DNA of 64,000 nt. Source: Nemertoderma westbladi. Lineage: Eukaryota > Animalia > Xenacoelomorpha. This document shows, piece by piece, positions 5,309 through 51,291 of this stretch (its first letter is position 1; each line of letters starts with the position of its first letter). The notes under the pieces are model-generated. The model was given only the letters and a program-made list of their open reading frames with translations. It was not told the DNA's origin and did not search any database. The stretch is from NCBI GenBank assembly GCA_032718475.1, contig JAUCBJ010009151.1, positions 62,001 to 126,000 of the forward strand, written 5' to 3'. The position numbers and the translations under genes were made by a program.

Positions 5309-5309
5309 A

Positions 5310-10210: not shown

Positions 10211-10342
10211 TGATGAATTATTTCACTATAGGATAGCATTAGTAGTATAACGTAAAAACTTTCGAAAATCCGACGCATTTTGATTAAGTCACAGTAATGT
10301 AATATGCCTACTCATATCAGTACACATAAAACCCCTAGTTAA

Positions 10343-10429
10343 TCTCGTGGCGTAGTGGTCAGATGGTTAAGGCATTGGTTGCATTACATAGGTTACGAGT
10401 TCGAATCCCAGTCGGGAAATTTGCATTTT
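10343..10429 (+). ncRNA. tRNA-like Pol III module (A box, B box) inside the BEL-1 LTR; second copy at ~30051-30137
   Basis: TGGCGTAGTGG and TGGTCAGATGGTTAAGG (D-arm/A-box-like), GAGTTCGAATCCC (T-arm/B box), flanking TCTCG/CGGGA pairing, T4 run downstream. No clean anticodon arm, so not called a functional tRNA. Confidence 0.65.
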
Positions 10430-10464
10430 GGGGCAATTTATTTTCATTTCATACAATTTGACAA

Positions 10465-10603
10465 ACCAATGAGGTGCGTACAACACATGGAACGATGAGT
10501 TAGGCCAATCATAGGGCATGGAATATCTTATTGCTCCAATGTGAGGCCATGGAATACTCTAGAAAGTTCTAGTAGATTCTATGTCCCAGATTTAGTATAT
10601 AAA
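10465..10603 (+). promoter_or_regulatory. LTR Pol II promoter: three CCAAT boxes, heat-shock-element-like array (10552-10579), TATA box (10596-10603)
   Basis: CCAAT..CATGGAA three times; GAA-ta-CTC-ta-GAA-ag-TTC-ta-GTA-ga-TTC; TATATAAA. Same motifs in the 3' LTR (30260-30311). Confidence 0.6.
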
Positions 10604-18138: not shown

Positions 18139-18141
18139 TTT

Positions 18142-21126
18142 CTTCGTAGATGCGGCGTACCGATTGAAGAACCGGAAGTGGAACCGCGAGGGACGACGGA
18201 AGTTCTTACTACGGAAGGCTCGCGAGCCTACCAAAATCCACCAATGGATAGATCATTCGTTAGCATGCGGAGCGACATTGGCGACATTAGTAGAACAGCG
18301 TCTGTAATTACTCGACAACAACAGGAGGTTGCACGCCGACAACAAGTCGTCGAGGAAGAAGCGCAACAGTGGATGGCACAGATCGCCATCGAGGGAGAGA
18401 AACAACGTAGAGAAGATGAGACGAGAATTGCGCAACTCAAGGCGCAAGCCGAAGTCGAAGCATCGGAGATGAGAAGATTAGCACGACAGAAAGAGGCATC
18501 TGACGCACGTGCTCAGTTGGAGGCACGGCAAATAAAATCACGTTTAGCTATACAGGAAGCAGAGTTAGCGGCACAACAACAAGTAGCGGATCGACTCGAA
18601 AGGGAGATGCAACTACAGTTCGAACTAAATCGTAGATCGCGCGAGGCAGCGAACGCGCAAGCGTACCTTGAACTCGACGCGAGAGATAGATCTATAAGAT
18701 CGCGAGCTGGACACGACTTGTCTGCCCTGGATCGCATGGAAGCTCGATATCGCGGAATTCAGAAGCGAATCGAGGAAGGAAGTGTGGGAGCGATAGATCG
18801 AGGAGAGGAGTTCATCGAGGATTACTGTAAACGTTTTCCCCAAGTTATTCCTATGCTCAAACCCACGACTCCGATAAAACCAGTCTTTGTTACGAAACCT
18901 AAGGAAATAACACCTGTGCGCTCGACGCAAGGTAGCAGGTTTGTTGTGACGGAAATACCGCAACCTAGGGCGACTTCATCGCCAATTTTAGCAGGTAACG
19001 TAACTAGTCCACCTACAGTAAGTCGTAGTCTACTTGTAGGAAGAGAGGAACCTGCGTTTATGACAATTAAACAGGTAAGTAAGCCATTAGTAGTTAAACC
19101 TGTGACGTGCTGTGCGAACCCAGTTATTTATAGACCGACTACGAAACCCGACTACTTTACTCGACCTTTGACACAATGTTCGACACAACCTACGACTTCG
19201 TGGAAGGCTTGCGAGCCTGCCGAACAACGGAGGAGAACGGATGTGGGTAGTACCCACGGGATCGAACAACGTTTAACGAGACCTACGACTTCGTGGAAGG
19301 CTTGTGAGCCTACCGAACGACGGAGAACCGTAGATTCTGGACCCCAACGAGTGAGACAAAAGGTAATACGCCGGACGCGAACATGCCAGCCACCTTATCC
19401 GGACGACAGCGACTCATCCAGTGACTCGGAGTCGACGGAACGGGAAATATTCCGTACTGGAGCGGCAGCGACAGCGGATTACAAACGAGAGGAACGATCG
19501 ACGAACCCCTACATCGACAATCCTCCACGAGAAACACCCCAGCAGAAACCCACGTTGCAACCAGTGGAAACGATCAGCGCCAAACAGTTCGCCGAGATGA
19601 CGGACCGACTAGCTCAACTCGAAGAACGACTTGAAGCGCAACCGTCGGATCAATCACGAACCAGCGTGAAGTTAGAACAACCTAGACAACATCGACCACC
19701 AAGGCGAGAACAGGAGACTAGACAGACTCCGACACATCGAGAAGAAGATCCCGTTAATAATTCCTACCGACGAACAACACGCGGAAGGGAACGACTGGAC
19801 GACGCCACCGAACAGGGACGCGGACAGTTGGATTTGGTTAGTGAGATTGCGAAATTCGGGGCTAGACACGGATTACCGGCACAGCAACCGCCGAAGTTCT
19901 CTGGCAACGCGAAACACTGGCGCACACTGGTAGACTACATAGAGTCCCAGATCACTAAGTGTGCTTTCACCTCGACGGAGAAGTTTAATTACTTGCTCCT
20001 AGTCCAGTCTGGTGAGCCGAAAGGATTAGCGGAAACCTTTATTGGTGTTCCCGATGCCTTTGAGTTGGCGTACGACCGTTTGTATTCGATTTACGGCGGT
20101 AACGTCGCCATAGCTAAATCCATTATCGAAGACCTCTGTAGAGGAGGCAGCATTTCGAAACCGATCGATCTTCTACGACTCGCGGACGAAATAAAAAACG
20201 CTATAGGGACTTTACGGTCCATTGGACAACTCGAGTACGCTAACGCACCGACGGTTCTCATCAGGATAATCAGTCGACTTCATCATCGACTTCGACGAAA
20301 ATGGCGACGCATCGAGTACCAGCGTGAAGAGGCCGGCGGGCTATTAAAACTCACCGACGTCTATCAACTGATTTCGCGGGAGGCCGTTATCGAGACTCAA
20401 TCGAATTATACTGATCATCATATCGGGACAGAAGGGATAGCTATTTCTGCGCCGACTCGGACTAAACCGTTTCCGACGAACGCGAAAGCCGTTACCTACA
20501 ACACCCCTACTGAGACTTCTAAAGTACTGACGCCTATCGGCACCATGCAGCCACGACAACAGTTGCCGGCGGACTTTATGGGATGCTCATATTGCGAGCG
20601 GGACGGCAGAAACCATAGCGGACATAAACTTCGTGGATGTCGCGCTTTTAAAGAGTTAGGAATCGAGGAGAGGAGACTCCAAATCCAATCTTTAGATTCT
20701 TGCTGGAGATGTACCAAGCCAGGACACGTCCGGAAGGATTGCCCGAGCGACGATACATGTCCTCTGTATGGACGTAACCATGACACGTTACTTCACACTA
20801 CTAGTCATACTCCGACCAGACGCTTTCGACGAGAGCATCCAGATAAAGCGGCTAGATGCGACGCTCCTCACAGAACTAGAACTAGAACTAGAACGCTCCT
20901 CACACAGAACCAATTGAAAGGGTTTAGCGTGATTCCTATAAAGATTACTGGAACCCGAGGGAGCAAGCGTATATACGCTATCTTAGACTCTGCGTCATCA
21001 CACAGTTATGTCGACGAACAAGTAGCTGACGTGGTTACGGACATGAGTCACGGTAAGACTGCTCAGTATACTGTTGGACGGGCCGAATATGAACAATTAC
21101 CTCATGGGAGTCCTAATGAGTTTTAG
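18142..21126 (+). pseudogene. gag: BEL-1 gag (coiled coil, DUF1759-like, three Cys/His knuckles) plus start of aspartic protease
   Basis: LPAQQPPKFSGNAKHW, LRRKW, CSYC..H..C, CWRCTKPGHVRKDC, HDTLLH; protease YAILDSASSHSYV; truncated by an internal deletion near 21060. Confidence 0.88.
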
Positions 21127-24100
21127 ACAACGCAAAGTGGCTTTCACCTGTGACGTAGAGGCCATGTTTCACCAGGTTAAGGCTTTGGAGCGGGACAGGG
21201 ACAGCTTGAGGTTTCTTTGGTATCCGGACGGAAATTTAGAACTTCCGCCAGAAACTTACCAAATGCAGGTAAGGGTCTTCGGAGCCAGGGACAGCCCCAA
21301 CTGCACCATGTACGCCTTAAAGCAGACCGCATTGGACAGACGAGACCAATTTGACCCAGAAGTAGTTCGGACAGTGGAACGAGATTTCTACGTGGATGAC
21401 GGCCTCAAAAGTTGTGACACTTTGGAGCCTGCTACAACCGTAGCACATCAACTCCAGGATTGTCTCGCTGAGGGCGGATTCCACCTGACGAAGTTCGCTT
21501 CCAACGAACCCGAACTGGTGAACTCATTTGACCCGACGGATCGTAGTGGAGGTGACTTAGACTTAGACCTAGAACCTCTGCCAACGACCAAAGTATTAGG
21601 ACTTAGTTGGGACCCTAACACCGACAATTTTAGGGTACGTGTAAGGTCCAACGACCAGACTAGACCTCTCACTAAGAGGACTTGCTTATCGACCATGAGT
21701 CGATTGTATGACCCATTGTGTTTCATTAGTCCAGTGATCCTACATGCTAGGATCATACTCCGCAGCATTTGGCAAGCCGGACTGGAATGGGACGATCCCA
21801 TCCCAGAAAAGTTAGCTGAGCAATGGAGGGACTGGGAAGCCCAACTGACGTTCCTACAAGACTATACCATACCAAGGGTATACTTTCCTTTGCAGACCAC
21901 CTTTCCTGCCGATTTAGAGCTTCACAGCTTTAGTGACGCTAGCAAGGATGGATTGGGGGTTACCTTATACCTTAGACGACAAGTGACATCGGACGGCTAC
22001 GATGTGTCTCTCGTTACTTCTAGGGCTAGAACAATGCCGTTGAAGTATATGACTGTACCTCGTGGAAAGCTGCAAGCCGGGACGATATCCACCGATATTG
22101 TCAGTCTAGTTCAACGCGAGCTGGAGGCTAACTTGAAGGTCACATATTGGACAGATGCGACGTTGGTACTTTGGTACATAAACAACAAAGCATTTGAGTT
22201 CAAGACTTTCGTAGCCAACAGACGGGCTGAAATATTAGACCGGTCGCTCAAACAAGATTGGCATCACTGTCCAGGGAAGCTGAACCCAGCTGACATCGCG
22301 TCGCGGGGGATGCAACCGCTTGACTTTTGTAAACCAGACAATAAATCCTTTTGGTTTAGAGGACCCGATTTCCTACAGCAACCATCAGACGAATGGCCAC
22401 CGTTATTCGACGCGACAACCAACACCATACCAGAGGGTGCCAAGATAAAAATCGACAAGGTTGTCTAATCCAAAGCGAAAGCCAACGCCAAGGTCAAGAG
22501 GAAACAAGGACGGACGAAATCTGATGACCTGGATGCCAGACCTGACATTACACCAGACGTCTCACCAGAATCTCAACCAGACGCTCGCATGAATCTTTCG
22601 TCGGATGTTCCACGGGAGATTTCACCAGATGTTTCGCCGGATTGTTCACCAGATTACTAGCCAGATTATTCACCAGAAGCGACACCAGATTGTTCTCCGG
22701 ATTGCTCGCCAGATTGTTTTATGGAACTCTCGACAGAATGTTTACAGGACGTCTCACCAGACTTTCCACCAGACATCTCGACAGACTGTCCACCAGACTT
22801 TGGACCAGACTTTCTGACAGAAGTTAAGCCAGACTTTCTTTGGGACCGACGACAGGACATTTCGCCGGATGTTCCGCGCTATGTCTCACCAGACTGTTCA
22901 CCGGACGCTTCACCAGACTGTCTACTAGACACTCCAGTAGAAGACCCATTGGAGCGGACTATTAGAAACTTACCGAATTTGACTTCTTTCTCTTTGGACG
23001 ACAAAGGTGTGGCCACAGCGATCACACTCCGCTCAAAGAAGGTACTTGACTTACCACCTACAGGTAAACGTGTGACTAAGGTTAGGAAGCTTACAGGCTC
23101 ACAGGAACACACTGGCACTGTGGAGTTGAAACCGTTACTGTCAGTCGACTCACTAGAAGCGGACGGTAAAGGTAAGACCGTGGAGATTGACATACTTGGG
23201 GACTCAGACAAACCTATCGGAAGGCCCGTGGGCCTACCAAGTCCAGACAAGTATCCACACTATGACTATACCTTACCTGATGACGTCACCAACACTTACG
23301 TTGACAGGATAGTGAACCTAACTAGATCATGGACTGACGCGTGCCGCAAGTTAGCATGGCTCAAACGTTTGAGATAATATTCCAGAGGCAAACGCGATTT
23401 CCTAGAGGACTTACCTTAAAGGAAGTTGGTCATTATGAAGTTGATATCATTAGACATTATCAATTGCGATATTTCGCACGAGAGTTCACAGCGATCAACC
23501 AAGGTAAACAGATTAAGTCTTCACCGATTTTGAGTTGGAGTCCGATTATTTACCGGGGCTTACTTTGCCACAAGTCCAGACTCCAAAACATCGACTTTGC
23601 ACTAGACTTTAGGTATCCTATCACCATACCGCAACACCATGAATTACAGCGCGCTATGATACTGGACGCACATGTACAACTCAAACACGTGGGTAGACAC
23701 CACTGTCTATCACACTTACGATCGAGGTTTGTACTGATTAGACCTAGTAAGGCACTGAGTTCGGTAACACGGAACTGTATGATTTGTAAGAAGGTGCACA
23801 CGAGGATAGGACACCAAGAAATGAGTGAACTACCACTAGCGAGATTACAGGCATTTAGACCCCCTTTCACTGAGACAGGGATAGACAGTTTTGGACCCAT
23901 AATCGCGAAACGCGGAAGGGTACAGGTAAAATGTTGGGGATTGATCTTCACTTGCATGGCCAGCAGAGCTGTCCATATAGAGCGTGTGACAGATTTGACC
24001 ACCAATGCCTTTATCCTAGCCTTACGGCGATTTATCGCTAGACGTGGATTGGTCAAATCCATCTATTGCGACCAAGGGACAAATATTGTGGGTGCACGGA

Positions 24101-24807
24101 ACGAAATAACCAGAGCTTTAAAGAAGTTGGACCAAAACCAGATTTCCGAGGAACTACATCCTCACCGTATTGTTTGGTATTTTAATACTCCAGACAGTCC
24201 GTGGAGAGGCGGCGTTTGGGAAAGGCTGATTGGTTCAATTAAGACAGCTATGGCTAAAGTAATACCAACGCAACACATATTAACAGACGACCAACTGACG
24301 ACGTTACTAATAGAAATCGAAGCAGTTTTAAACACTAGACCGATCGCTTTGATCCCAGACAATAACGACGCCCAGTTTGCCTTGACACCAGCGCACCTGC
24401 TTATGCAGGCGCCGACGACATTGTTGCCCATTTCGGTACCCGTTAATAGCGACGGATACGGCAACAAAGCTTGGAAAATCACTCAATTACTTGCAAATAA
24501 ATTCTGGGAAATATGGCAGAAATATTATTTGCCCTCTATTTCGACGAGAACCTCTTGGTATCTTAATACCCGATGTTTGAGACGTGGTGACCACGTTTTA
24601 TTGGCTGAAGCCAATCTGAAAAGACGGTTTTGGCTGACTGGAGTCATTTTGACCACGCACCCTACATCTGGTGTAGTGAGAACAGTTACTGTAAGGACTA
24701 TCGACGGTCGTACCATAGACAGACCTGTACAACGTCTCGTGCTCCTTGAGGAGACTAGAAACGAGACAGGTGACGACTACAAACCTCCACCCAATATTAG
24801 TAAATAG
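21074..24807 (+). pseudogene. pol: BEL-1 pol: RT (N-terminus deleted), Pao RNase H, low-complexity linker, integrase
   Basis: LLDGPNMNN, DVEAMFHQV, FYVDDGL (RT); HSFSDASKDG, YWTDAT, NPADIASRG (RH); H..H..CMIC, GIDSFGP, CDQGTN, GGVWERLIGSIK (IN); stops at 22466-68 and ~22660, frameshift ~23375. Confidence 0.93.
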
Positions 24808-25527
24808 AGATGTGGGACCTTTGTTGGCCGCCACATAGACCTACCGTATTTAGTAATTTAGCATTTTGTATTACTGTATGTGCATTTGTAATCCTCTTCA
24901 CTGTAGATAGAGACAGCAGTGGAATTCCATTGTCTTTATATGTGAACATGGAGGGTAGTACCCTTATGTATCACATAGGAGCGGGATTGTGTGTACAGTA
25001 GGAATGGAATTCCACTTGGAACCCACAAGTGAGACAATTTTTCAAAAATTATTAGACAAATCCATTTAGTTGGATTTAAATTTAAGAAAAATGATTCTCC
25101 AGTGAATGCGAATTCTAGAATACAGCTAGATAAAAATTAAAATTGGGGAGGACAAGAGCGGATGGAAGGCTTGCGAGCCTACCGATAAATAAAATTTTTT
25201 TTTGGAAAAGTAGTCGTGTCTGCTATTATTTAGACCGAATTAATTCTCGACTGCATTATTTCTTTGGGAATGTAGTTTGGGAAATTAAAAGGTGAGTATT
25301 TTAGACTCGCGGCTAGTTTACCCGGAATTCGTTTTTTATCGGCACATTTTTTTGGATTAGGAGCCAGTGCGAAATCACGCGAACCCGAAGTCATTAGGCA
25401 AATGGGTTGGGGTTTTAGAGCAAAGTTGAGCCAAAAGCCAACAAACTCTAAGTCACCTCACATCTAACCTCTATTTTGTGCTTCATCTAGTAGAAACATA
25501 ACGATATGTAACCATATATACGCGTAT

Positions 25528-28500
25528 ATGATGGCGGAGAAGATTTATAAGGAGTTACGTCAAGGGTTTATGCAGGAACAAGAGCACCAGGCGCCGTTTA
25601 ATCGTTATGGAGCTAAAAACTTTAGTGTGTTTGGAGTGGAGAGTATGGCTAGGAGTACAGCCAAGCTCGCTAAATCCAAGGCGGACCCGAATGTTACGCG
25701 ACAGCGATTGGACGCTTATAACAAAAGAACGGAGGAATTACCCGCGGAGTTCAATGCGTTATATCCTTACGACGCGTTATGCGATGCTAGTGACATTTGC
25801 GAGGATCCAGACACCGAAATACGCCGATTATATCATATGCTGCAATATTTGACGGTAAATGAACCCTTACCTGCAGCCAGAGACGAATTTGAAGGAATGC
25901 ATCTTTATAGATGCGCTTGAGGGGCGGATCCAGAGACAAAGGATGCGTTCTCCATATACAAACTGTTTTATAAATGTGGAGCATGTATGCGCGAGCAAGA
26001 CAGCGCGATTCCTATGCGGTTGAACTCGGAGAACCCCGAGCCGATATTAGCGCGATGCTCATACCACCAAAGTCTACGTTACCAAGAAGGCGGATACCCT
26101 TTGACGAATCCGTATCATTCATTTAAAATGAGTGGACCGAACGCGGGTGAGATCGTTATTTATGAACCTAAGTTAGTCGAACCAGACGTCTACAGCATGG
26201 TAGTGGACGAATCTAACAAGTCGACGCAAGAGAAACGGGAAGCTTTGAGCCTCTACAGGGCGTACAAGGCGTACGAGAAAGGCGAGATCAAGGAGTTCGG
26301 CGGAAGGCTCGCGAGCCTACCATTCTATTGGATATCCCACGATCAAACCGAACCTAAGGAGATGACACCCGAGCTCTTCGATAGTATCACCTTTGCTCAG
26401 CGTTTGTCGCAGAGACTACAGATACCTCATGTCGAGATGACGCGAGAACCTCAACCCCATTCTGCTGGAATGATAGTACCGGTTGCGAGACCAACTAGTT
26501 TTCCTATTAGTATACCGACCCGGAAGGAGACAACTTACGAGATCCCTATAGTTGAACACCCGGAGATCATTTCGAACCTGGATTTCATCCCATCGGTTAC
26601 CTATGGTGATGTGTTAGAATCAGCCGAGTTGCGTAGAACAATAGTTCAGAAAATCGTACGCAACGTGCCTCCACATATTACGGACTTTAAGGAAGTGGAT
26701 CGCACAGGGACGGATATCGCACCTTGTATCTTGCGAGGATATCTGACGAGAACTATTCGATTATGGATCGGAGTCGGAACATTTGAGACCGACACCGACA
26801 TCGCGACCAATTGGACCGGTAAACCTATTAGTTTCGATGATGAAAAGTCGATTGGGAGAATTTGGAACCCTACCGACGATTTACTCGACGATTGGGACGT
26901 GACTAGCCGATCTCTGAAGGAGATTGGTTACATGTTTTACGATATTGAAGGAGGAAGCCACCAGCAAAGCGTCACTTCGAAGACTATACAGATTAGAGCA
27001 CCAGATGGCGTGTTACATGTCTTCAGCCGACAAAGAAGCGATAGAAAGATGCCTATGCCGGAAGGAACGACGCAAAGACACGCGATGATAAAACGGATAG
27101 TTAAATCTATGGATCTGGCTTGTAGCATAGAAGCTAGGATGTTGCCAAAGGCCGTGCGAGACGTTGTGTTAGACAAAAGCATTGTCAAGATCGGATCCGG
27201 TGTACGGGATGACCTTATTAGCGACTTTGCAGGGATGCCCAGGGGAGAGGATCGATTGCCTACGCCGTACGTGGATACTAGACCATTGTTGCTTTGGGCT
27301 ATCGAGCAAGGATACTTTAGAGAGTATAACACGCTAAAAACTGGGACGGGTTATATCTCATATCTAATGTTCAGTTGGGATTATAAGGAGAGTAAGAGGA
27401 GCAAATACACGGACGTATACGGAGAGGGAGACACTCCCGACATAAACGAGTTCGAGTCACAGCTAAAGTTGCGAGGTTGCGTGTACTGGGCGATTGCTTC
27501 ACCTCCGCGAATAATCTTACAATACTACTTGGCGATAGAATCTTCGGTCAACGTCTGCTTCATCGCCGATGTTGTGTCTAGGGCTCTAAAGCGACATCCG
27601 TTATGTCTCGGTGAAGGACATACCTTTTACGACGGAGGAAGGACGCATACTGATGTATTCCTACGATTTCTCCAACCCTTTTATAACACCGATGCGCACT
27701 GCGAAGTTTTCACGCGAGCAGGACTTAGCGTTTTCAGGGACGTCAATCTCACTCACGCAGGAAGCCTAGTTGACAGACCGTCGATGTTAACGTTAGTACC
27801 CTATGACGGGGAACGCCACGCGGAATTCGAAGGCCCGGAAGGATCCTGGAAGGCTCGCGAGCCTACCGCCCATCACGACGATGTGGATCCGACCGAGTTG
27901 GCGCTAATAGACGAACCGTTGCGGCAACTATTAGAAATAGAGGAGAATCTTCCGAGGAAGACGCGAACTGAGATACGCGTGTTGGAGAAAAGCGATGCCA
28001 TGGTTTGTGTACAACCCACGGAGACGAACATACCGACTGACCCGGATGATGAGAATTATCACGTGGACGGTAGCGCTCGCCCCATCGGAGATCTTATCTA
28101 TGAGCGAGTTTGGTACCCTGCCAACACTATTTGTGGCAGATGCGGGGCAACTGGCCACCACGCAAAGAAATGCGGAGCGAAACACATATCTCTACCGGAC
28201 TAGGTATGCAACTGGTGCGGGGATCAGCGTTCGCACACTTTCTACACTTGCTGGTGTTTCGTGGCGCAGTGCACGTATTGTAATATTAAAGGCCATAGGG
28301 CGTCCGAATATCAACTTAGAGACGTTCCCTATGAGCATATGTCAGTTAAAATCGTTCGACAGCTATTCGACCATTGGGAGAATCTAGCAGACGAGCATGT
28401 ATCAACGCAGCGACGCCGTTTCCCTATTAGAGCACACTTAGGATTTTGGGCCGTAAACCCTCTCATAATGTCGAAGGAAGGATACGTGTCGGCTATGCCT

Positions 28501-29285
28501 CAATACGACGAACTTTTGGAGGTGCTGGATTTATTGCCACTGGAGAGCGGATTTAAAGTTGTGCGGGACTACTTCTACAGGTACACCCCGACAACAAGAA
28601 TACTTGGAACTTTCAAACTGTGGTGAACAAGATTACCGCCGGGGAATTCGACAAATTGCGAGTTGAACAGCGGAATCGAGGAGCCTGGCATTCGATAGCT
28701 TGGGCATACAGGAGCGCATTTTATCACAAACTCGTAACCTCGTGCATTCTAGACGAGACCGACGTTTTGCGTGAGACTGGCTTCAAGGCCACGCCGTTAG
28801 CTGAAAAGACGCGTCACCCACAGGATGATCCGCAACTTCGTATACTCAGAGCCCAAAAGGCCAGACAAGAGATAAAGAAAGTAGTAAATGTCGCCGAGAG
28901 GACGACATCAAAGTCGCAAATCCGGATGACTCGGGGCACGGTTTCCCTTGCTAGAGAACCACGCGGAGGGACAGGATACGCTTTGCCGGAACCCATTAGG
29001 ATTCAAACGACATCAGAGAGCGAGGTGTCAACGGACGGAATGGTCCCACCCTTTCGACTTCCTCCCAGCATTGTAGAAACTCGATCCGATGTTAATCCGA
29101 CAGTTGGAATCGGACGAGGATTTAGAGGACTGAGCGCACGACGGATGTTCGAGACTCCCGTCGTCCCATTTCCTAGCGTTTTGGAACCACCGACAACTCG
29201 ACACCGAAGTCCGAGTCCAGTTCGATCTCGACCTCCACCCAGTCGTACTAGAGGACGTGGACGAGCCCGTTCGGCCAAGGAATAG
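25528..29285 (+). pseudogene. BEL-1 extra 3' ORF: DEDDy 3'-5' exonuclease-like domain, three CCHC knuckles, basic/Pro-rich tail
   Basis: ORFs 25528..25920, 25987..28203 and 28261..28626 share one frame (two in-frame stops), then frameshift to 28620..29285. Motifs GYMFYDIEG, IQIRAPDG, LPKAVRDVVLDKSIVKIGSGVRDD, YVDT, YLAIE; CGRC..H..C, CNWC..H..C, CTYC..H. Confidence 0.75.
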
Positions 29286-29918
29286 GAAAGAGAAAAGAAG
29301 GAAGGCTTGCAAGCCTACCGATTTTAATGTTTGTATTGGACATTATATTTGGGATTTATATTTGGGATTTATATTGGGATACTATATCGAACATTGAGTT
29401 TGGAGGAGCGAGATAGAGAAGGAAGGCTTGCGAGCCTACCGTTAGCAATTAGTGCTCAGGAGAAGACATCCAGACCAGCAGGACGAACTATTGAGATCGT
29501 CAGGAGGACACTTTAAGACTTATTTGAAAGATTTTAGCGCATTATGTTTATTTTATATTTAGACTGATTTAATTTGGTGGAAGTTTATTATGTGTATTTA
29601 CAATATATAAAACTTGTTGAAAGATTTGAAATTATTTGTTCGATTCGTTTTGATTTATTTCGTTCTGATTTGTTTAATTTGTTTATCTCGATAACCGAAA
29701 GCCTTTTTTTGTATTTTATGCACTAAAGTTGATTGGTAAATTTGTATTTTGTATGTATGATTGATTATATTTACGCCGTACCTGCAATATTAAGTATGCA
29801 ATAATTAGATAGTGATTATTTTATATTTTAGGCCCTACCAGTAGATTTAGAAGTATTTGTAAATAGTTTTGTATTTCGATTGGTGAAAACAGTCTTACTT
29901 ACTGTTTTCATGGAGCGG

Positions 29919-32121
29919 TGATGAATTATTTCACTATAGGATAGCATTTGTAGTATAACTTAAAAACTTTCGAAAATCCGACGATATTTGATTAAGTTAC
30001 AGTAATGTAATATGCCTACTCATATCAGTACACATAAAACCCCTAGTTAATTTCGTGGTGTAGTGGTCAGATGGTTAAGGTGTTGGTTGCATTACATAGG
30101 TTACGAGTTCGAATCCCAGTCGGGAAATTTGCATTTTGGGGCAATTTATTTTCATTTCATACAATTTGACAAACCAATGAGGTGCGTACAACACATGGAA
30201 CGATGAGTTAGGCCAATCATAGGGCATGGAATATCTTATTGCTCCAATGTGAGGCCATGGAATACTCTAGAAAGTTCTAGTAGATTCTATGTCCCAGATT
30301 TAGTATATAAAGGGCTGGTTTGCCTTCGGTTATCACCTTATCCCTCTCTACGCCATTCTCAGTCAGCACAACTTACGGTTCACTACTCTTGTTAAACTTG
30401 ATTTATTCAGTTTATTATGTTTCTTGTTGAAACTATTTGGCAATTCTGTTTGATAAAGTTTTGTAAACTGTAAATATACTATAAACTTCTGAACATGTTT
30501 TTCTGCATTTGTCCAACTTTGGGACAGCAAAGCATCAGGAAGATGGCCGCCTAGACCGTTAGGCCGTCAGCAACGCAGGGAAAGGATGTCCACAACACGC
30601 TAGCGCCCACATTAGCTTAGACCGCGCACCCCCTTCGCCCTTCGAAATGCTCCACTTGCCATGCAGCGCCCGCTTTATGAGGAAGGTAAGACTTTGTTTG
30701 ACACCCTTGCCCACCGTAAGACCTATAGATCAGGGTAAGCGTGACGCCGCAAATTTAGGATCAAATAACTATATTTTGGCAGAACCCCCCCCCCCCCCCC
30801 CCCTTGTCAGTAGTACGAACCCCTGGGTTACCTGTATACCTCACAGGTGCGAATTATTGCCGTTCGTCAGTACGCGAGTACACATTAGGTACAGACAGCA
30901 TATGTTCCATAATTTAGTGATTCGTAGTACTGACTGTTTGGTACCGGTTCGCTTTGTAGAGCATACATTAGTACCCTACCCCCGCCTGAAGTTAGTTATT
31001 TGATCAAGCAAGGAGTATTTCTGCTACCGGCACACTGCTTGGCCTAGGGAGGTTTTATTAATATCCTACCGCGCCTTGCCACGTACTGATAGGTATTGCT
31101 ACTAACTACCGCAGCAACAAAGTTCTAGAATCAAATTTGTATACCAGATCAGCTAACGTACAGTAGCAATTAACCCCTATTTCTTATCTTACAACCAGAA
31201 TCTGGTATTTGTGCCTATCACGGGTGTAGTTACTAACACCGTGGTTGCCCAGTTGAGTTGTGGATAGGAAGGATAGAGCTTTGACGTCATTTGTAAGTAT
31301 AAAGCTCTACAAAACGCGACTAGCTTATTTTAGTAGCTAGCGCACGGTATTATTTCGGTCAGAGAATTACCAAAACCTAGTAAATGATATACACCAAAAT
31401 TGTTTTATTGTAAAACACCCACACACACACGCCCTAAAACATATTTACCATTAGAGTTCCTACTAGATAGCGCAATTTAGATTTAGGCAGAATTTATCTG
31501 TATTTGTAAATTAGGATCAGATATTTAGTTACGGCAAGGGAGCATTTCATCTTCGTTATTAAACTGTTGTTTTTCTGCGCATCAGTTATTGTTACATTTA
31601 GGTACGACCTCTTTTAGGCTGATTCAGACAGGGGGATCAGTATTGTTACGCTAGGTCCAAAACCAACCTAGCTCGTATATAAACCATATAAATCACACCG
31701 CGGCAAGTTACTGTATTTAGGACTGTCAGCGATAGTTAGGATTCGCTGCGCGGGGATTGTTTTCCCGTGAGTTTGGTCTGTTACTGTAACTGTACATCTG
31801 CCATACCGGTTAGAGGACAGGTATCCTTTTGTCTAGTACGTAGGCATTAGACCCGCCCACGTACATAGAATAGACACCAGGCTCTGCTCCTCGCCAGTAG
31901 TAGTTTGTGTATTGTATCTGTTTGTTTAAATATCCTGGACTGGGAATTGTTGTCAGATACTGTACGAGCCCGTTTCATTACTAGAGTCTTACAGTAAGAT
32001 ACATCGTTACTAGGATCTGGTAAGCGGTATACTACTGGACTTTACGGATAGAGATATTCTATAGCTTCGTATTTGTAGATTTGTAGGCTGTAGGGTAGTT
32101 CCTACCGTAGAGGACACAACA
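29919..32121 (+). repeat. BEL-1 3' LTR, preceded by a short purine tract GGAGCGG (29912-29918)
   Basis: Direct repeat of 10211-12416. Confidence 0.96.
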
Positions 32122-39917: not shown

Positions 39918-40485
39918 TGTGATCCTGTGATCCCTATTTATCCGGTTTTGGTTATCTCGCCTACGTGTCCCCGCCATATGTGTGAAAAGAGTTCTAATGT
40001 TATTGAGTTACTCTCTGTTGTTGGATCGTATGTATAGATATATATATATAAGATAAAGTATAAGCACAGTGATTGTAATAACTGAGTGAATGAGTACCGG
40101 TAGGATGGTTGAATGATGGTGGCAGTGGACGGTGACAAGAGTTACCGTTCCGCCCTAACTGAACTGACTAACTGAGTGAATAAATGACACTGTAACTGAC
40201 AATATATTGCACTGGTTGGCCGTATTACATTACTCAGTGGATGCATGCCCCCCATTGGCTAATAACTCACTTCTCGCCTTCCATCTCTCTGGGAGTGTTT
40301 TCCCCCCCGCTACTGTTATTCTCTCTCTTGGAGGTATAACCTCTGACCCCCTTTGTGTGTTTCTTTGGGGTTTGTCATCCCCGTTTATTGGGGTGACACG
40401 AGGTTGATTGGTAATCAACCTCGTGCTCCCAATATTGCTTAAAGCTAACTTTGTAGGGTGGCTAGCGGAATTTAATTCGCTAACA
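39918..40485 (-). repeat. BEL-2 3' LTR
   Basis: TG...CA; direct repeat of 50714-51291; adjacent C-run 40486-40493 is the PPT on minus. Confidence 0.95.
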
Positions 40486-41321
40486 CTCCCCCCATGCTAC
40501 CTTCCCGGTGAGAAGATCCACCTCTAGTGCGCTACAATTCCGCTGGATCCCGATCTATCATCGGGTGTGGGATGGAGCTATTTTCTCGGAGCCTGCTTTC
40601 CAGGCCGCTCCCTATGGGTATGATATCGCTACCCCGTCTTGGTACAACTCTATCTATCTTGTACCAAGACATCTGGCATCCCATGTCGGGCCGATCGTGC
40701 GCTTCTCTCACACAACTTTTGTTTCCCCAACACTTTCACCACTAACTCCGCTCCACTTTCACCCTAACTCTTCCATACCCTCGGACCTCCTCGTCCCTCA
40801 CTCTGTCTCTTGCTTCTCCCCCCCCCCCCACACTTGAATTGCACCCGCGCTCTCTCCGCACTATTACTCAAGCCCTATCTCACCCACTCACTCCTGACGA
40901 GTCTCACCCCCCTCCTGTGCCTTTGCACTAAAGAAGTGTGATGTCTTCCAATGTCTCGTCTGTGAATTATAGTATCATAGTCTATTGGTTCCCAGTCCCA
41001 GTAGCTAATTGGAAAAGGTTATATGACTATAGTACTTACTTTGATTATATTTGTTTACTAAACTAATGATTGTTACGTACGTACATACTAATTGCACTTT
41101 TCAATTATTTAAATTACTTGAATTTGTACTTAGGAGTTCGCACGTCTCACGTGGTGCCTTCCAGGCATGCTACATTGAAGTTCTAGTTCGTTCCACCTGA
41201 CTTTGGGAACCATCTCAATTCTTTCCCTCTGTCGTCCTCCTCCCTTGGTCGTTTCCTGGCCGCTGCCGCTCCTTTGACTTTATCTCCCTTCAGACCCCTG
41301 ACCCTCGCTGTCACCTCTCTA

Positions 41322-43755
41322 CTAATCCCGGTCGTCGACTCCTTGGGCGCTGGTGTTATTGGCTCCCGGTATCGCTTCGCGGGTGGCCCCTCCGAGTGGC
41401 CCTGTTGTCTCCCCCTGGTGGCGTCCCATAGGATCACTTTCATCGCCCGCGGCACATGCTCCGCCAAGAAATCTCTGAACTCCCCTCTGTTCTGTGGTGT
41501 CCGTCCACCTGTCCAAATACCTCTGCGTATTTATCACCCCGGCATACGACGCCGCCGTCGCTACCTCCTGGTAGGTAAACGGAAGTCTCCATTTGATAAT
41601 CTCCAAGTGGGCCTCCTGGTTGATATTAAAGAAGCCCCACCGGAACTCCTGGGCCTTCATACGTTGCCGAGTCATGGCCCCGACGTCGGCCCACTCCTCG
41701 AAGATCCTAAACTTCTCTTCGTCGTCCATCCAGTCGCACTGGCGTCCGTAGTGCCCCCGGAAGCTGCACTTCGAACATCGGTTGTGCAACCGTGGACATG
41801 CCCCCATCCTGTGGCTCGACTCGCGGCAGTAGAGACAACTAGTCCCTTTCTGGAACCGGTACAGGCAGCTCCTTTCCTGGTGGGTCTGTCTCCCACAGTA
41901 ATCACAGTCGAGCACCAATGTCTCCCACCCCACGTCGTCTTTCATCCCAAGCGATCTCCGCGGTCTGTGGAGTCGCTGGTAAGCGAACTTCTGGACATTA
42001 GCGTCCCTGTCCACGTCGATCTCCTCGCCCCTCCCGGGCATCGTCTCCCCGAATACTACCCGTGGTGCCATTCCCGGTTGCTCGCCCAACCTGATGGTGC
42101 TCCCCGCGAAATCCATCGCCGGCTCCTCATGTACCCAGGCCCACTTGCCGGGTCTATCCCAGAAGGCTCTCGCCCCACTGGCCATCACCACCCTCCCGCC
42201 AACCCAGTCCGTGTCCGAGTGGCCGATCCTCCCGGTGGGCGGCATCTCTCCGAACTCGTCTTCATCCTCGTCCTCCTCTGGGAGTGGCTCCAACCCCGGT
42301 ATCCCGGTGGACCCGCTGTGTCCCTTTCCACCTTGGCTCTCGCCCGTAACTTTCCATCCTTCCAGCTCCCCTAGCCTCCTTAGCAGCTGATCGCCCTCGG
42401 CGCCCGCTGGTATGGGCGTCGTCTGCAATCCCAATGTCGACTGTTTTGGTGATCCCACCGTCCACCCTAATTCTCGCCCTAGAGACTCCCCCGAACTCCC
42501 TGACGACGTCCAACGAAGTTCGTCTAAGGCCGCCTGTTCCTCGAAGCCATAGCTCTGCGCTCTAGCTTCTTCCTCCCTTTCCTCTGCCTCTCTCCTTTCC
42601 TGTCTAGCGATTTCTTCCAATCGCTTCGCCTCTCGTCTATCCGCCTCTAGCTGCTCCCATCTCTGATATGGCGTATCTACCTCCCTGTCTACCAGATGTC
42701 AGCAGTTATAGTACACTGACTCGCCCTTCAGCCCCGGGTGGTCTACCAGACCCTCGAAAGCCGTCTTGAAGGCTCTTCTGTAGCTTAGGGGTGATCCCGA
42801 TAATAGGAATGCCATTGGTTCTTTCTCAATAACCACGGTCATGAATAGGTTAAGCAAACCCATCATTATCCTGAGGATCCTGCAGGATATATCGCTTCTG
42901 ATATACCTTTATCGCTCCTCTCCGGAATTGATACACCTCTTGTTTTCCTGGTCTCGCTCCCTACTTCAGCGAGTTTGCCAAGTCCGCTCCGTACTCCTCT
43001 CTGAACTTACTCCAGTCCATTGGTTTGTGACACACGAGCCCCATTAGCTGGCCCATCGCCACCGCTCCACAATGGCCTGAGTTCTCCACTAATCCCAGCC
43101 CGTCTGGTGCTGTCATAGCCATGTAGATCGTCTGCATATCCAGAAGGTTGGGGGTGTCCGGACCGATGATTCTCTCCGCATTGTCGCGAATCGCTGATCC
43201 CACTTTCGTCGTCGACTTCTCTCTCACTATGGTTTGCTCCACCTTTGGCAACCGGTTCAACTTCGGCTCGTCCTTCTTTCCATATGTCCCCAGATCGAAT
43301 AGGAATATATCCCCATTTGGCACGGCCAAATGTAGGAGTATTGTTCTGGTCGACCCCGCCGATCCTCTCCTCGAACCCTCCTCGTCTTCCACAGTCCCCT
43401 CATCATCTAGGACCATGTATCCTCCTCTGCTGACGGACTCTACGAACCTCTTCCAATCCTTTCTCGGTGGCTCTCTTGCGTACTTCGGAATCCCGAACTT
43501 CGCTTCGTCTCCTTTCACCACGTAGTGGAAATGCTCGAAGATCGCGTTGTCCAGCGACGGCGTCCCGTAGGTCCCGACCAGTCGCTGTTCGTGCACCTCC
43601 CTGAAATGGTCCTGTAGCGCTCGCGCTTTGTGACCTCTCTCTAACCGCTCGTAGTATCCCCTCGTCTTCTCTTCCGGATGCCTCTCGGTGAAATCCACCA
43701 GTATCTCCTTTCCTCCTAACTCCGCCTTTCTCTTTCGGACAAGCTTCCCTGCCAT
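41322..43755 (-). pseudogene. BEL-2 extra 3' ORF: DEDDy exonuclease-like domain plus three CCHC knuckles, homologous to the BEL-1 3' ORF
   Basis: GYMVLDDEG, LHLAVPNG, LPKVEQTIVREKSTTKVGSAIRDN, LLDMQ; in-frame read-through of the stop at 42961-63 gives QKRYILQD (YxxxD); ORF 41322..42620 has CDYC..H..C, CLYC..H..C, CSKC..H..C. Confidence 0.75.
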
Positions 43756-44234
43756 CTCGAACTCTCCTCAATCGCTCACCTGTAAGGTGGTGCCTTGCCA
43801 AGGCGCAGTACAGATGAGTGATAAAGTTAGGATGGTCTGTACAGTTCGACAATGGCCTATCTCTTACTTAACTCCGAGTTTTCGCCTAATTTTCCCTACT
43901 TAATTTCTAAAACTGCTAAATTGTACCCTAAATTGTAATTTTGTCCGTTACTTTAATTATGTTCCAGAATATTTTTTCTACTGTTACCATAACTTGTCTA
44001 ATTTTCTAATTCTATTTTATTTTTAATATTTAATCTAATCCTATTACTGTGCTACTACTTCTGCCAGTGGATTATTCTACTTTATAATCCGCATTCTGGC
44101 CTACTCTGTGGGCTTGTGCAGTACAACAGTATGCGTCGCGTGGCCTACACGATTTATCCAGCTGTACTCACGTGCCCCCCTCTCGCTACTCACTACTAGC
44201 TAATATTTATATTATACATGCCCTTCTACCACTA

Positions 44235-44680
44235 ACTCTTACTAACCGGTACTACGTACCCTCTTACTAACTTCTAACTAACTCTCACTAACCGGTACTA
44301 CGTACCCTCTTACTAACCTCTAACTCCCACTAACTCCTACTAACCGGTACTACGTACCCTCTTACTAACTTCTAACTCCCACTAACTCCTACTAACCGGT
44401 ACTACGTACCCTCTTACTAACCTCTAACTCCCACTAACTCCTACTAACCGGTACTACGTACCCTCTTACTAACCTCTAACTCCCACTAACTCCTACTAAC
44501 CGGTACTACGTACCCTCTTACTAACCTCTAGCTCCCACTAACTCCTACAAACCGGTTCTACGTACCCTCTTACTACTAACTAACTATCTAACTGATGGTA
44601 CTACGTACCCTCTTATTACTGACTCTTACTAACTAACTAGCGGTACTACGTACCCTCTTACTACTAACTCTTACTATCTG
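44235..44680. repeat. 52-bp tandem repeat (~8 copies of the core, outer ones degenerate) between gag-PR and the 3' ORF of BEL-2
   Basis: CTAACCGGTACTACGTACCCTCTTACTAACCTCTAACTCCCACTAACTCCTA; ACCGG recurs at 44291, 44343, 44395. Confidence 0.9.
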
Positions 44681-44920
44681 CCTACTTACACTGACTACGT
44701 ACGTACTATTACTTTCTCTTTATTTTTTTATATTTTTATTTGTATGTGGGAAGGGCGTCTCGCCCTCAATCCCACCCCCCTCAGTCCAAAACTTGAACGA
44801 CTAAACTCAACTCCACTAAGGTGCGCCCTCAAGCAGGTAATACTTCCTACCGCACCTCTACTGATCCAACTCTTTCATCTTCGCCCCCCTTTAGTCTAAC
44901 TTATTGGACGACTCAGCGAC

Positions 44921-47900
44921 CTAAGGGGTGATTCTTCCAGCAGGCAACTCCCCCACTGTCCCTGTAGGTCCTCTAATTCTCTGTCCCACTCTCCTTGTCA
45001 ATTCCAGGTCTCTTGGAATTGAACTTCCCTTCTTTAAATTTGGTAAGTGCTGCCTGCTCTCCATGTCTCTAATCTCCTCGTAGTCGTCCCTTGACGGCAA
45101 AGTGCCACCCTTCAACTCATTGTTTGGCGGTATAATGCTGCCCCTGTTGTCATCTTTACTCTTACATGCCACCTCTGCTGGCCTCCCTCTTAATATATGC
45201 ACTGGCATTAAAGGCCTCGACGACCCCCATTCGTCCTTCGGCATACACGATGTCTGCATATGTAATGCCCCCTCGCACTCTGGCAGTCCCGCATGCGTAT
45301 GCAACACGCCTCCTACTTTCCTGACTCCTTTATTATGTTTACTCATGGGCTTCTCTGCCCCTGGTCTAATCCTCTCACATCCTCTCCCTTTCCATCTTGT
45401 CTTCTTACTCGACCTCCCCCTTGTCGGTATGCCTCTCAACTGGACCGGCGTCTCTTCCAGACACTCCTCTGAACACTCCTCCGGACACTCCTCTGGACAC
45501 TCCTCCAGACTATTGTCCTCCTGACACTCCACTGGACACTCCTCCGGTTTGTCCTCCGGACATCTCGCTGTCCGCTCCTCTCCATCTCCATACCGATACT
45601 TGCTGGGACCCTTGTTCCAACCCATTGTCTCTAAATCTTCTGCATCCAAGCCATTCTCCTCTGCCCACTCTCTTGGTGTTGCTTCCACTTCTAGCTGTCT
45701 CCCCCTATCGCCCGTCTTTGGCCTCTCCTCTACCCCCTCAACAGTCCCTGGCACCATGCACCCTGAAGTCTCGGTTACACTGAATGGTATATTGGTTCTG
45801 ATTGGGCCGGTTAGCGTCCACCCGAATGGTGTTAAAATCGCCACCGGGTCACACTGCCTGTCTTCGCCGAAGACCGTTTGCATTCTCTCGTGGGCCGTCG
45901 GGCAGTCCATTCCTACTATAATGGATACCTTCCTAACGTCCACCTCTGGGATTGAGAAGTCGATACTGTCCAGGAATTTATATTGTTCGACCTCGATGTT
46001 GGTTGGCCGCCTGGCGTTGATATTTATCGACTCTATCACCTGGATGGGGTCGATGCTCGCCCCATAGTCGCATCCTGGTGCTATCGCTGCTATCGCGCAC
46101 CGTCCGGTCCTCATCTCCAGGACCTCATCTTTGCTGGAGATGGTTGTTACCGCCATTCTACTTGGCCTCGTTCTCAATCCTATCTCTTCGGCCACCCAAT
46201 TCTCGACTAATGTGAAGGCTGCTCCACTGTTGACCAGCATCAGTGTGGTCACTGATCGATTGCCTTCCCCGATCACTCGCACTGGTACTACCCCAAGTAG
46301 TACCATTCCTCTCTTCTTTTCCCCTACGGTGCTCGTTGCCATCGTCTGACCTTTACTTTGACCGAACTTAATCGGCGTTTCCTTGCATTGATTAGCTCTA
46401 TGTCCACTCATCACACATCGTGGGCAGATTTCATTTCTTCTCGCGTATTCTACCTGATCTTCCCTGGGTAGCGCTTGCCAGTACCTGCAGTTCATGGTCT
46501 GATGAAGTGCATTTGTATGTAATTGGCATTTGCTCTTTGGGTTGTAGCCATCCTTATAAAGTGCGTTGCATATCGCACTTATGTTTGTACCAAAGTCCTT
46601 ACTATTCTTATTGTTTGGGTTCGGCCTACTGGGCGTGCTGGGGTTATGTTTATTTGCGTTGTTATTTTTCCCCTGTCCGCTCCATGATGTGGTCTTACCC
46701 CCGGCTACTTGTGGACTGGCAGTCCCCTGCGTTGCTGTGTACGGCAGTGATTGTCTGAGCTTTGGCAATGCATTCGACGCGTTGTGTTCTGGTTTCGGCC
46801 TGTGGAAATGGGTCTTTGGTCCCTTTCCCAGGCTATCCTCGCTATAGACTGGGTCCGTTATTAGTTCAGATTCATAATTTAAGAAGCTCGACATTTCTTC
46901 TAAACCTGGTTCCGCACCCTTCCTGTCTCGAGTGGAGAAAGCGATCTTCCTCCACTTGTTGCGCAACCACATTGGCAGTGCCTGCGCTATCGTGGTGATG
47001 TTGTTGGACGCGTTAAGTTCGTATGGCGCGTCCAGCGTCTTTAGCACGATTAGCGCTTTCTCGACTTTAACGGGGTTATCCTGTAGGCCACCCGATTGTT
47101 ATACCTCTTAGGGTTTGCCGGATGATCTTGGCCGGGTGCCCGTATTCCCTGTCTAGTGCCCTCCATGCTGTCGTGAAGCCGCCCTCGATGCCCTGGTATT
47201 GACTCACGATGTCGTATGCTGGGCCCCCTGTATATACTTGCAGATACTTTAGGCACTCCGCTTGTGTCAAGTTCTTCATTAGTATCTCATTACTATACAT
47301 GCGCCGAAACTGTAGGTATTCTTCCGGCCTACTTCCATCGAATTTAAACGGTTCCACGGGTGGTAACTCGATCCTGGTTTTTAAGGCATCGATTAATGTA
47401 GCCATTCCCATCGCTTGCACTTCCAATGGGTTCGATGGATGCTGTATAGGTTCTCCCGTTGGGTGCGGTCCGTTCGTCCTGCCTGGCGCTTTTCTTTGAC
47501 TTGGATATATCATCGGGGGTAGCAGCCCCCTCCATATTTCGGTGTCGCACGATCTATTCTCATCCAAGGGGTTCGATATTCTTGTTCCTATTGGGTATAT
47601 TGTTGATATTGTGATGGGGGAATGTCACCCTGTCCCTCCCCCCCCCACCGGTATGTTTGGTACTGGGGTTGATGTTAATATATTGGGGCCCATGCACCTA
47701 TCCGCAATAAATCTCCCCTCCCCTGGATATATGTTATGTCCTTGCATGCTGTAGTCATACTGCTGTGCTGGTACCGGTATAGGCCTATCCACTTCTGGCC
47801 TACCTGCCGGTATGTACTCCGCGACTTCCGGGTTTAATCCCGTCGTCCATGCTATCCTATCGCCTACATTATCTCTCCCAGCATGGCCTATAGTATGTGC

Positions 47901-50654: not shown

Positions 50655-50703
50655 CTTTTGGCTCTTTAGTCGGTGGCTGGTAACTGTCAGTTAGTTCGGC
50701 TTG

Positions 50704-50713: not shown

Positions 50714-51291
50714 TGTGACGGGATCCGAGAATCCCGATTTATCCGGTTTTGGTTATCTCGCCTACGCATCCCCGCCGTGTGTGTGAAAAGAGTTCTAATG
50801 TTATTGAGTTACTCTCTGTTGTTGGATCGTATGTATAGTATATATATATATATAAGATAAAGTATTAGCACAGTGATTGTAATAACTGAGTGAATGAGTA
50901 CCGGTAGGATGGTTGAATGATGGCGGCAGTGGACGGTGACAAGAGTTACCGTTCCGCCCTAACTGAACTGACTAACTGAGTGAATAAATGACACTGTAAC
51001 TGACAATATATTGGACTGGTTGGCCGTAATACAATACTCAGTGGATGCCTGCCCCCCATTGGCTAATAACTCACTTCTCGCCTCCCATCTCTCTGGGAGT
51101 GTTTTCCCCCCCCCGCTACTGTTATTCTCTCTCTTGGAGGTATAACCTCTGACCCCCTTTGTGTGTTTCTTTGGGGTTTGTCGTCCCCGTTTATTGGGGT
51201 GACACGAGGTTGATTGGTAATCAACCTCGTGCTCCCAATATTGCTTAAAGCTAACTTTGTGGGGTGGCTAGCGGAATTGAATTCGCTAACA
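50714..51291 (-). repeat. BEL-2 5' LTR
   Basis: Direct repeat of 39918-40485 except for the terminal ~25 bp. Confidence 0.95.

What the first reader, a model, noticed from the sequence alone, without database searches (positions are those of the whole stretch)
41322..43755. BEL-2 carries a distant homolog of the same ORF, including an unnamed conserved C-terminal motif
Collinear matches (BEL-1 / BEL-2): DW.....S....GYMFYDIEG / DW.....S....GYMVLDDEG; IQIRAPDGVLHVF / LHLAVPNGDIFLF; LP..KSIVKIGSGVRDD / LP..KSTTKVGSAIRDN; YLAIE / YILQD; three knuckles with a 6-aa spacer between the second and third; then WENLADEHVSTQRRRFPIRAHLGFW / FEEWADVGAMTRQRMKAQEFRWGFF, i.e. [FW]ExxADx4Tx2Rx7[LW]GF[WF]. Conservation at this divergence implies an old, selected accessory gene. 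I do not recognise the last motif from any named domain.
Basis: seen in the sequence. Interest (0 to 1): 0.8.

Follow-up and report, generated by a model that had tools for sequence, protein, structure and literature searches.

The report
Retrotransposon-borne exonuclease with zinc knuckles
Two distantly related BEL/Pao jumping genes in this DNA each carry an extra gene, kept under selection in at least one of the two families, that likely encodes an RNA-trimming enzyme with three RNA-gripping zinc knuckles, a kind of accessory gene described before in rotifer elements.

Summary
The homology is real. BEL-2 (39918-51291, minus) and BEL-1 (10211-32121, plus) are LTR-bounded elements, and each carries a long extra ORF just before the 3' LTR. 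The shared N-terminal block beats every shuffle (z 6-8). It has the motif order and spacing of a DEDDy (RNase D/WRN-type) 3'-5' exonuclease, and the ESM Atlas points to PF01612 (score 0.92). Bacterial profiles, PDB searches and two low-confidence folds did not confirm this. Three CCHC knuckles follow. The 'unnamed motif' is present as written but is borderline on its own (p 0.02-0.11), and no outside relative was found. This BEL-2 copy is broken, but its family is highly repeated and under purifying selection: 21 of 29 variants segregating among copies are synonymous, against 23-32% expected. The stop and the altered ExoII residue are private to this copy. This copy has no RT, RNase H or integrase. 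Best reading: a knuckle-guided RNA exonuclease accessory protein, built like trypanosome RNase D. DEDDy ORF3s are published for rotifer LTR elements; my searches found none in BEL/Pao. Verdict: new variant of a known kind, interest 0.5.

The parts
39918..40485 (-). BEL-2 3' LTR, ends in CA; polypurine tract directly upstream; 5-bp target-site duplication at 39913-39917 and 51292-51296 inside the 39-bp satellite
   Evidence: 21 differences in 568 aligned columns between the LTRs
50716..51291 (-). BEL-2 5' LTR, begins TG
44921..47624 (-). BEL-2 gag (DUF1759, knuckles) and aspartic protease, followed by a 12-bp-repeat acidic tail; no RT, RNase H or integrase found in this copy
   Evidence: PF03564 E 2e-8; PF13650 E 8e-4, below its cut-off; tblastn and phmmer --max with BEL-1 pol: no match
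44229..44676 (-). 52-bp tandem array upstream of the BEL-2 extra ORF; 9 copies of a 17-nt core that folds as a small hairpin on the sense strand
42877..43755 (-). BEL-2 extra ORF, N-terminal part with the likely DEDDy exonuclease: ExoI D-x-E at 43399-43407, K..ExoII site at 43180-43206, ExoIII Q-x2-Y-x3-D at 42877-42900; stop at 42961-42963 private to this copy
41907..42872 (-). BEL-2 extra ORF, middle: helix after ExoIII, then charged and acidic low-complexity linker; stop at 42699-42701
41736..41906 (-). BEL-2 extra ORF, three CCHC zinc knuckles
41628..41702 (-).
41183..41530 (-). second frame with a basic tail (15 K/R in the last 60 residues), likely the family's C-terminus after a frame break near 41500
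10211..12416 (+). BEL-1 5' LTR (2.2 kb); 5-bp target-site duplication at 10206-10210 and 32122-32126
   Evidence: 38 differences in 2201 columns
18022..24807 (+). BEL-1 gag, RT, RNase H (PF05380) and integrase (PF18701), broken by frame shifts
25528..29285 (+). BEL-1 extra ORF (about 1250 codons) between integrase and 3' LTR; stops at 25918-25920 and 28201-28203, frame break near 28600-28626; RS/RG-rich basic tail
26872..27600 (+). BEL-1 likely DEDDy exonuclease core, open frame, with D-x-E, K+8 Asp and Y-x3-E
28132..28311 (+). BEL-1 three knuckles (third ends in Tyr; a stop lies between the first and second)
28375..28449 (+). BEL-1 post-knuckle motif
29919..32121 (+). BEL-1 3' LTR
18213..29441 (+). 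nine dispersed copies of a 21-nt hairpin in BEL-1, starting at 18213, 19202, 19295, 23219, 25164, 26302, 27848, 29300, 29421; all in sense orientation; two inside and three flanking the extra ORF

Best explanation
Both elements carry a homologous third gene inside their LTRs that likely encodes an RNA 3'-5' exonuclease of the DEDDy class joined to three zinc knuckles, and it is under purifying selection in the BEL-2 family. Shown: homology, position, knuckles, motif order, selection in the BEL-2 family. Inferred: the fold and the activity. The knuckles would grip single-stranded RNA and feed its 3' end to the two-metal active site, as in trypanosome RNase D. The most likely job is trimming 3' ends of the element's own transcripts or of the host small RNAs and tails aimed at them, which would help the element escape RNA silencing. 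The post-knuckle motif is probably the start of a small helical domain that extends the RNA-binding module.
For: Homology z 6-8. In both proteins, hydrophobic-D-x-E, then two hydrophobic strands, then K with the ExoII site 8 residues later, then Y-x3-D/E occur in the order and spacing seen in RNase D and NrnC (reference pattern). An unanchored profile alignment put ExoI D/E, K and the ExoII site of both longer constructs in register, though without a significant score. ESM Atlas: 23 of 30 hits are PF01612 clusters, best 0.92. A prediction made before held: the Asn at this BEL-2 copy's ExoII site is private, with 7148 of 7398 and 10804 of 10891 depth reading another letter in two studies, while the listed variants in the ExoI D and E codons are synonymous. 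Selection: 21 of 29 segregating variants synonymous against 0.23-0.32 expected (p 2e-8 to 1e-5), while private changes are neutral (3 of 11); pooled 27 of 36 against 6 of 19, Fisher p 0.003. Best PDB match of the knuckle profile is 7C45, trypanosome RNase D (E 0.002), whose CCHC domain is needed for RNA binding and efficient trimming (PMC7797062, passages). No 19-residue hydrophobic stretch above 1.5, so not env-like.
Against: No Pfam or NCBIfam exonuclease match at E 10. HMMs from 49 NrnC-like and 11 RNase D bacterial proteins gave nothing significant, nor did hhalign (probability 0.1%) or glocal scoring (z 0-0.8, and it misplaced ExoIII). PDB sequence searches with the domain found no nuclease. 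AlphaFold models were unusable (pLDDT 31 and 36), and Foldseek had no match at E 0.001. The Atlas hit shares 157 of 256 features, under the 170 typical of the same family, and PF01612 is on only 29% and 11% of the two best clusters' members. The 7C45 match covers knuckles only. BEL-1 has Glu, not Asp, at ExoIII. Selection was tested for BEL-2 only, and not within the motif. Substrate and role rest on analogy alone.
Confidence: 0.55

Rival explanations
1. The domain has the DEDD fold but works without catalysis, as an RNA-binding adaptor like EXD1, Egalitarian or Maelstrom, for transport or packaging of the element's RNA.
For: Very divergent from active families; Glu at BEL-1 ExoIII; large insertions; repeated sense-strand hairpins offer a ligand. 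PMC5408684 raises the inactive-DEDD parallel (discussion read).
Against: ExoI D and E are kept in both elements at about 25% identity and vary only synonymously among listed BEL-2 variants; the lost ExoII residue is private to one copy.
Confidence: 0.15
2. The enzyme acts in replication: it trims the primer or genomic RNA, or proofreads or trims cDNA ends inside the particle.
For: DEDDy enzymes act on RNA or single-stranded DNA (PMC5408684 passage). Neither element shows the usual TGG primer site directly after its 5' LTR.
Against: It is a separate ORF, not part of pol; most BEL/Pao elements replicate without it (ICTV profile lists gag, pol, env only); the BEL-2 copy keeps it although pol is missing.
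Confidence: 0.15
3. The N-terminal block is homologous between the elements but is not a DEDD domain; the acidic residues are a chance fit and the gene does something else.
For: All alignment-based tests against known DEDDy families were non-significant; shuffled proteins reach an Atlas score of 0.9 in 4-10 of 100 cases.
Against: Five motif positions in the right order in two sequences at about 25% identity; the private-Asn prediction held; precedent for exactly this ORF3 type.
Confidence: 0.13
4. A host gene fragment was captured and carried passively.
For: Both copies in the window are broken.
Against: Purifying selection among BEL-2 copies; two families with only weak gag similarity share it at the same position.
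Confidence: 0.02

Closest known systems
DEDDy exonuclease ORF3 of bdelloid rotifer LTR retrotransposons Juno and Vesta, also in Athena/Terminon elements (PMC5408684; abstract, passages and discussion read)
   Same: Extra ORF after pol with a DEDDy-type exonuclease, no transmembrane segment, function untested
   Different: Here the carriers are BEL/Pao (PF05380, PF18701, PF03564); the ORF is much longer (about 850 and 1250 codons) with three CCHC knuckles and a basic tail; purifying selection is seen here, while the rotifer study found no significant departure from neutrality. Sequence relationship not tested: the rotifer proteins were not available.
Trypanosoma brucei RNase D, TbRND, PDB 7C45 (PMC7797062; passages read)
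   Same: DEDD exonuclease followed by a run of CCHC knuckles; best PDB match of the knuckle profile (E 0.002)
   Different: Cellular enzyme with four knuckles about 30 residues after the exonuclease; here three knuckles after a linker of 170-320 residues; no sequence match over the exonuclease, so probably convergent architecture
PF01612 DNA_pol_A_exo1 family (RNase D, NrnC, WRN, EXD2, mut-7)
   Same: Motif order and K-to-ExoII spacing; Atlas neighbours are mostly plant PF01612 clusters
   Different: No HMM match; large insertions; that the K-x-G segment is WRN/EXD2-like is recalled, not tested
Extra ORFs of Belpaoviridae (ICTV profile PMC8742986, whole text read)
   Same: Third gene between pol and the 3' LTR
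   Different: The profile names only env-like third genes. I recall that some nematode Cer elements were reported with a 3'-5' exonuclease domain (Malik, Henikoff and Eickbush 2000); the paper is not held, so this is unverified and would lower novelty.

Membership tests
BEL/Pao LTR retrotransposon (Belpaoviridae) | LTRs with TG...CA ends and a short target-site duplication | tested here: met
   both elements, 5-bp duplications
BEL/Pao LTR retrotransposon (Belpaoviridae) | BEL-type gag and pol domains in order PR-RT-RH-IN | tested here: met
   BEL-1 has PF03564, RT, PF05380, PF18701 in order (protease not scored)
BEL/Pao LTR retrotransposon (Belpaoviridae) | Same pol domains in BEL-2 | tested here: not met
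   gag (PF03564) and protease only; assigned to BEL/Pao by gag; a deleted or non-autonomous copy
BEL/Pao LTR retrotransposon (Belpaoviridae) | tRNA primer-binding site after the 5' LTR | tested here: inconclusive
   no TGG directly after either LTR; host tRNAs not available
DEDDy 3'-5' exonuclease (PF01612) | ExoI D-x-E after a hydrophobic strand | tested here: met
   both elements
DEDDy 3'-5' exonuclease (PF01612) | ExoII acidic residue 8 positions after the conserved Lys | tested here: met
   BEL-1 has Asp; this BEL-2 copy has Asn, which 97-99% of depth from other copies does not share
DEDDy 3'-5' exonuclease (PF01612) | ExoIII Y-x3-D | tested here: inconclusive
   BEL-2 Q-x2-Y-x3-D fits; BEL-1 has Y-x3-E; assigned by eye, and the blind alignment chose other residues
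DEDDy 3'-5' exonuclease (PF01612) | Significant profile match to the family | tested here: not met
   only the Atlas lead; no eukaryotic WRN/EXD profile was available
DEDDy 3'-5' exonuclease (PF01612) | RNase H-like DnaQ fold | tested here: inconclusive
   pLDDT 31; EXD2 appears at rank 13 with E 0.91, which carries no weight
DEDDy 3'-5' exonuclease (PF01612) | Metal-dependent 3'-5' activity | not testable with these tools
   needs an assay
CCHC zinc knuckle array | C-x2-C-x3..5-H-x4-C repeats | tested here: met
   below Pfam cut-offs; BEL-1's third knuckle ends in Tyr
env-like ORF3 | Transmembrane segment or signal peptide | tested here: not met
   maximum 19-residue hydropathy 1.48 and 1.39
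Rotifer Juno/Vesta DEDDy ORF3 lineage | Sequence clustering with those ORF3s | not testable with these tools

The most novel reading that the evidence does not exclude
An old BEL/Pao lineage carries its own counter-silencing RNP. The knuckles and the post-knuckle domain recognise family-specific hairpins written many times into the element's RNA (nine dispersed in BEL-1 across three reading frames, nine arrayed in BEL-2), and the exonuclease removes silencing tails or small RNAs from the marked transcripts. The benefit is large enough that a high-copy family keeps the gene under selection even after losing pol.
Probability: 0.15. Interest if true: 0.85.

Novelty: new variant of a known kind. 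Interest (0 to 1): 0.5.

Why it matters
What the non-envelope third genes of LTR retrotransposons do is open. The rotifer report found DEDDy ORF3s but no sign of selection and no function. Here the ORF shows clear purifying selection, sits in a different superfamily, and has an architecture with a solved cellular parallel, so a substrate hypothesis can be tested. The repeated sense-strand hairpins give a concrete candidate ligand. If it counters RNA silencing, it would be an animal retrotransposon's own nuclease against host defence.

Tried and rejected
No whole genome is held. Homolog searches were blank: three in the 5.8-billion collection (limited by length windows and shared words), phmmer of the 760-residue BEL-1 piece against 1.84 billion representatives, viral contigs, plasmids (one chance row each). 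The two metagenome loci are low-GC bacterial coiled-coil genes matched by one short word, rejected as chance. Bacterial DEDDy profiles from 60 loci gave no significant match; they proved to be NrnC and RNase D, not WRN-like, and a second sample found no WRN-like seed. Both folds were too poor to use; the wide VIA-align search never ran. Blocks seen by eye in the N-terminal extension, after ExoIII and after the last frame break were not above shuffles. No RNA holder listed. No Rfam or tRNA match in the window. Look-ups of earlier findings by place and sequence were empty. Literature: searches found no paper describing an exonuclease ORF in BEL/Pao; 'exonuclease' has 0 occurrences in PMC3118150, PMC8220671 and PMC2774666. 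One further search failed. No supplements were read; those of PMC3118150 (element sequences) and PMC5408684 could bear on novelty.

Full report
Setting. Much of the window is a 39-bp satellite interrupted by retroelements. BEL-1 spans 10211-32121 on the plus strand, with 2.2-kb LTRs differing at 38 of 2201 columns and a 5-bp target-site duplication. It has gag, RT, RNase H and integrase with BEL/Pao-type Pfam domains. BEL-2 spans 39918-51291 on the minus strand, with 570-bp LTRs differing at 21 of 568 columns, a polypurine tract and a 5-bp duplication. It has gag and protease, but tblastn and phmmer --max with BEL-1's pol found no RT, RNase H or integrase in it. Each element has a long extra ORF just before its 3' LTR: 25528-29285 in BEL-1, after the integrase, and 43755 to about 41183 in BEL-2.

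Observation. The quoted matches are all present. The N-terminal block is homologous beyond chance (z 6.3, 0 of 2000 shuffles; core z 8.1 local and 5.8 global). The knuckle region scores z 8.0 with the motif, but with Cys and His fixed the knuckles alone fall to z 1.0. Alone it is reached by 58 of 2000 and 220 of 2000 shuffles, and by 115-293 of 3000 in local and 317-1108 of 3000 in global variants. Its place just after knuckle 3 in two homologous proteins makes it plausible, not proven. Both copies are broken: BEL-2 by two stops and two frame breaks, BEL-1 by two stops and one frame break.

What the N-terminal block is. Both proteins show a hydrophobic strand ending in D-x-E, two further hydrophobic strands, L-P, then K with an acidic site eight residues on, and later Y-x3-D/E. 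RNase D and NrnC show the same order and the same K-to-D spacing. The ESM Atlas placed the BEL-1 segment next to PF01612 clusters (23 of 30 hits, best 0.92, 157 of 256 shared features), which is a lead at the distant-relative level. Against this, Pfam, NCBIfam, PDB sequence searches, HMMs from 60 bacterial DEDDy proteins, hhalign and a glocal profile all failed to reach significance. Both folds were unusable. No eukaryotic WRN/EXD profile could be built. One risky prediction was testable. This BEL-2 copy has Asn at the ExoII site, so the nuclease reading required that residue to be private. It is: 7148 of 7398 and 10804 of 10891 depth in two studies read another letter there. I put the DEDD-fold assignment at about 0.85.

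Selection. The BEL-2 family is highly repeated: 9114 contigs of run X1 lie on 4.1 kb, most at 90-99% identity (this is not a copy number). In 42850-43480, 40 of 46 differences at 25% share or more were shown. Of these, 29 segregate among copies, 22 of them at third positions and 21 synonymous, against a neutral expectation of 0.23-0.32 (p 2e-8 to 1e-5). The 11 private to this copy are neutral (3 synonymous). Adding 15 further ORF sites from the 40 of 685 rows shown gives 27 of 36 against 6 of 19 (Fisher p 0.003). The stop at 42961-42963 is private (over 99% of depth). The one contig per run that crosses 42874 in X2, X3 and X5 differs in length from this copy, and some contigs do so near 41498. 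So the gene was maintained while the family spread and decayed here after insertion. BEL-1 and the motif itself were not tested this way.

Mechanism. The best PDB match of the knuckle profile is trypanosome RNase D (7C45, E 0.002), a DEDD exonuclease whose C-terminal CCHC fingers bind U-rich RNA and are needed for efficient trimming (PMC7797062, passages). The match covers knuckles only, so this is a parallel in design. There is no transmembrane segment and both tails are basic. I infer an intracellular RNA exonuclease guided by its knuckles, acting on the 3' ends of the element's RNA or of host silencing RNAs (0.55). Rivals are an inactive RNA adaptor (0.15), a replication-trimming role (0.15), a wrong fold call (0.13) and passive capture (0.02).

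A candidate ligand. BEL-1 holds nine copies of a 21-nt sequence. Eight match within one or two letters, where shuffles give none, and a ninth was found by the repeat finder. All are in sense orientation and they sit in three different reading frames and in non-coding DNA. All 63 cells of a 7-pair hairpin are paired, with one compensatory change (49 of 500 shuffles reach this), and the second loop base is always G. Single copies fold so but are not unusually stable (z -0.6 to -2.0). BEL-2 has a different small hairpin nine times in an array upstream of its extra ORF. These could be bound by gag, by the accessory protein, or as DNA; nothing here decides.

Comparison. DEDDy ORF3s are published for rotifer Juno and Vesta elements, with no significant departure from neutrality and no function shown (PMC5408684). 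Unchecked notes of this scan report Rrp6-like ORF3s in Gypsy elements of other invertebrates. The ICTV profile lists only env-like third genes for Belpaoviridae, and my searches found no BEL/Pao exonuclease ORF. I recall such a domain in nematode Cer elements from a paper that is not held; this is unverified. No relative of either protein was found outside the window.

Verdict. A real, selected accessory gene of two divergent BEL/Pao families, likely a knuckle-guided DEDDy exonuclease: a new variant of a known kind. Interest 0.5.

Noticed in passing
window 18213-29441: Nine dispersed, same-strand copies of a 21-nt hairpin in BEL-1, in three reading frames and in non-coding DNA, with one compensatory pair change.
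   Followed up: partly
window 44229-44676: 52-bp array with nine copies of a small hairpin core directly upstream of BEL-2's extra ORF.
   Followed up: partly
window 44921-47098: BEL-2 gag-protease frame stays open for about 300 residues past the protease with no RT, RNase H or integrase; whether the whole family is non-autonomous is untested.
   Followed up: partly
window 10206-10210 and 39913-39917: Both elements inserted within two bases of the same position of the 39-bp satellite unit, in opposite orientations; could be chance (about 1 in 8) or targeting.
   Followed up: no
window 10211-12416 and 29919-32121: BEL-1 LTRs are 2.2 kb, beyond the 0.2-1.2 kb given by ICTV; a tRNA-like stretch with a B-box lies near 30055-30125, not called by ARAGORN.
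   Followed up: no
window 22528-22947 and 45441-45574: Both elements code an acidic Pro/Cys-rich segment from 12-bp repeats, between RNase H and integrase in BEL-1 and after the protease in BEL-2.
   Followed up: no
window 14553-17750 (minus): A LINE with a PHD/RING-like finger, AP endonuclease and RT-like frames is nested in BEL-1's 5' region.
   Followed up: no
window 1655-5323 and 57617-60196 (minus): Two more RT-coding elements sit in the satellite; the first is a 1222-residue frame with a 30-bp tandem repeat.
   Followed up: no
window 12417-12430 and 50700-50715: Both 5' LTRs are followed by GTGA rather than the TGG of a tRNA primer site.
   Followed up: no
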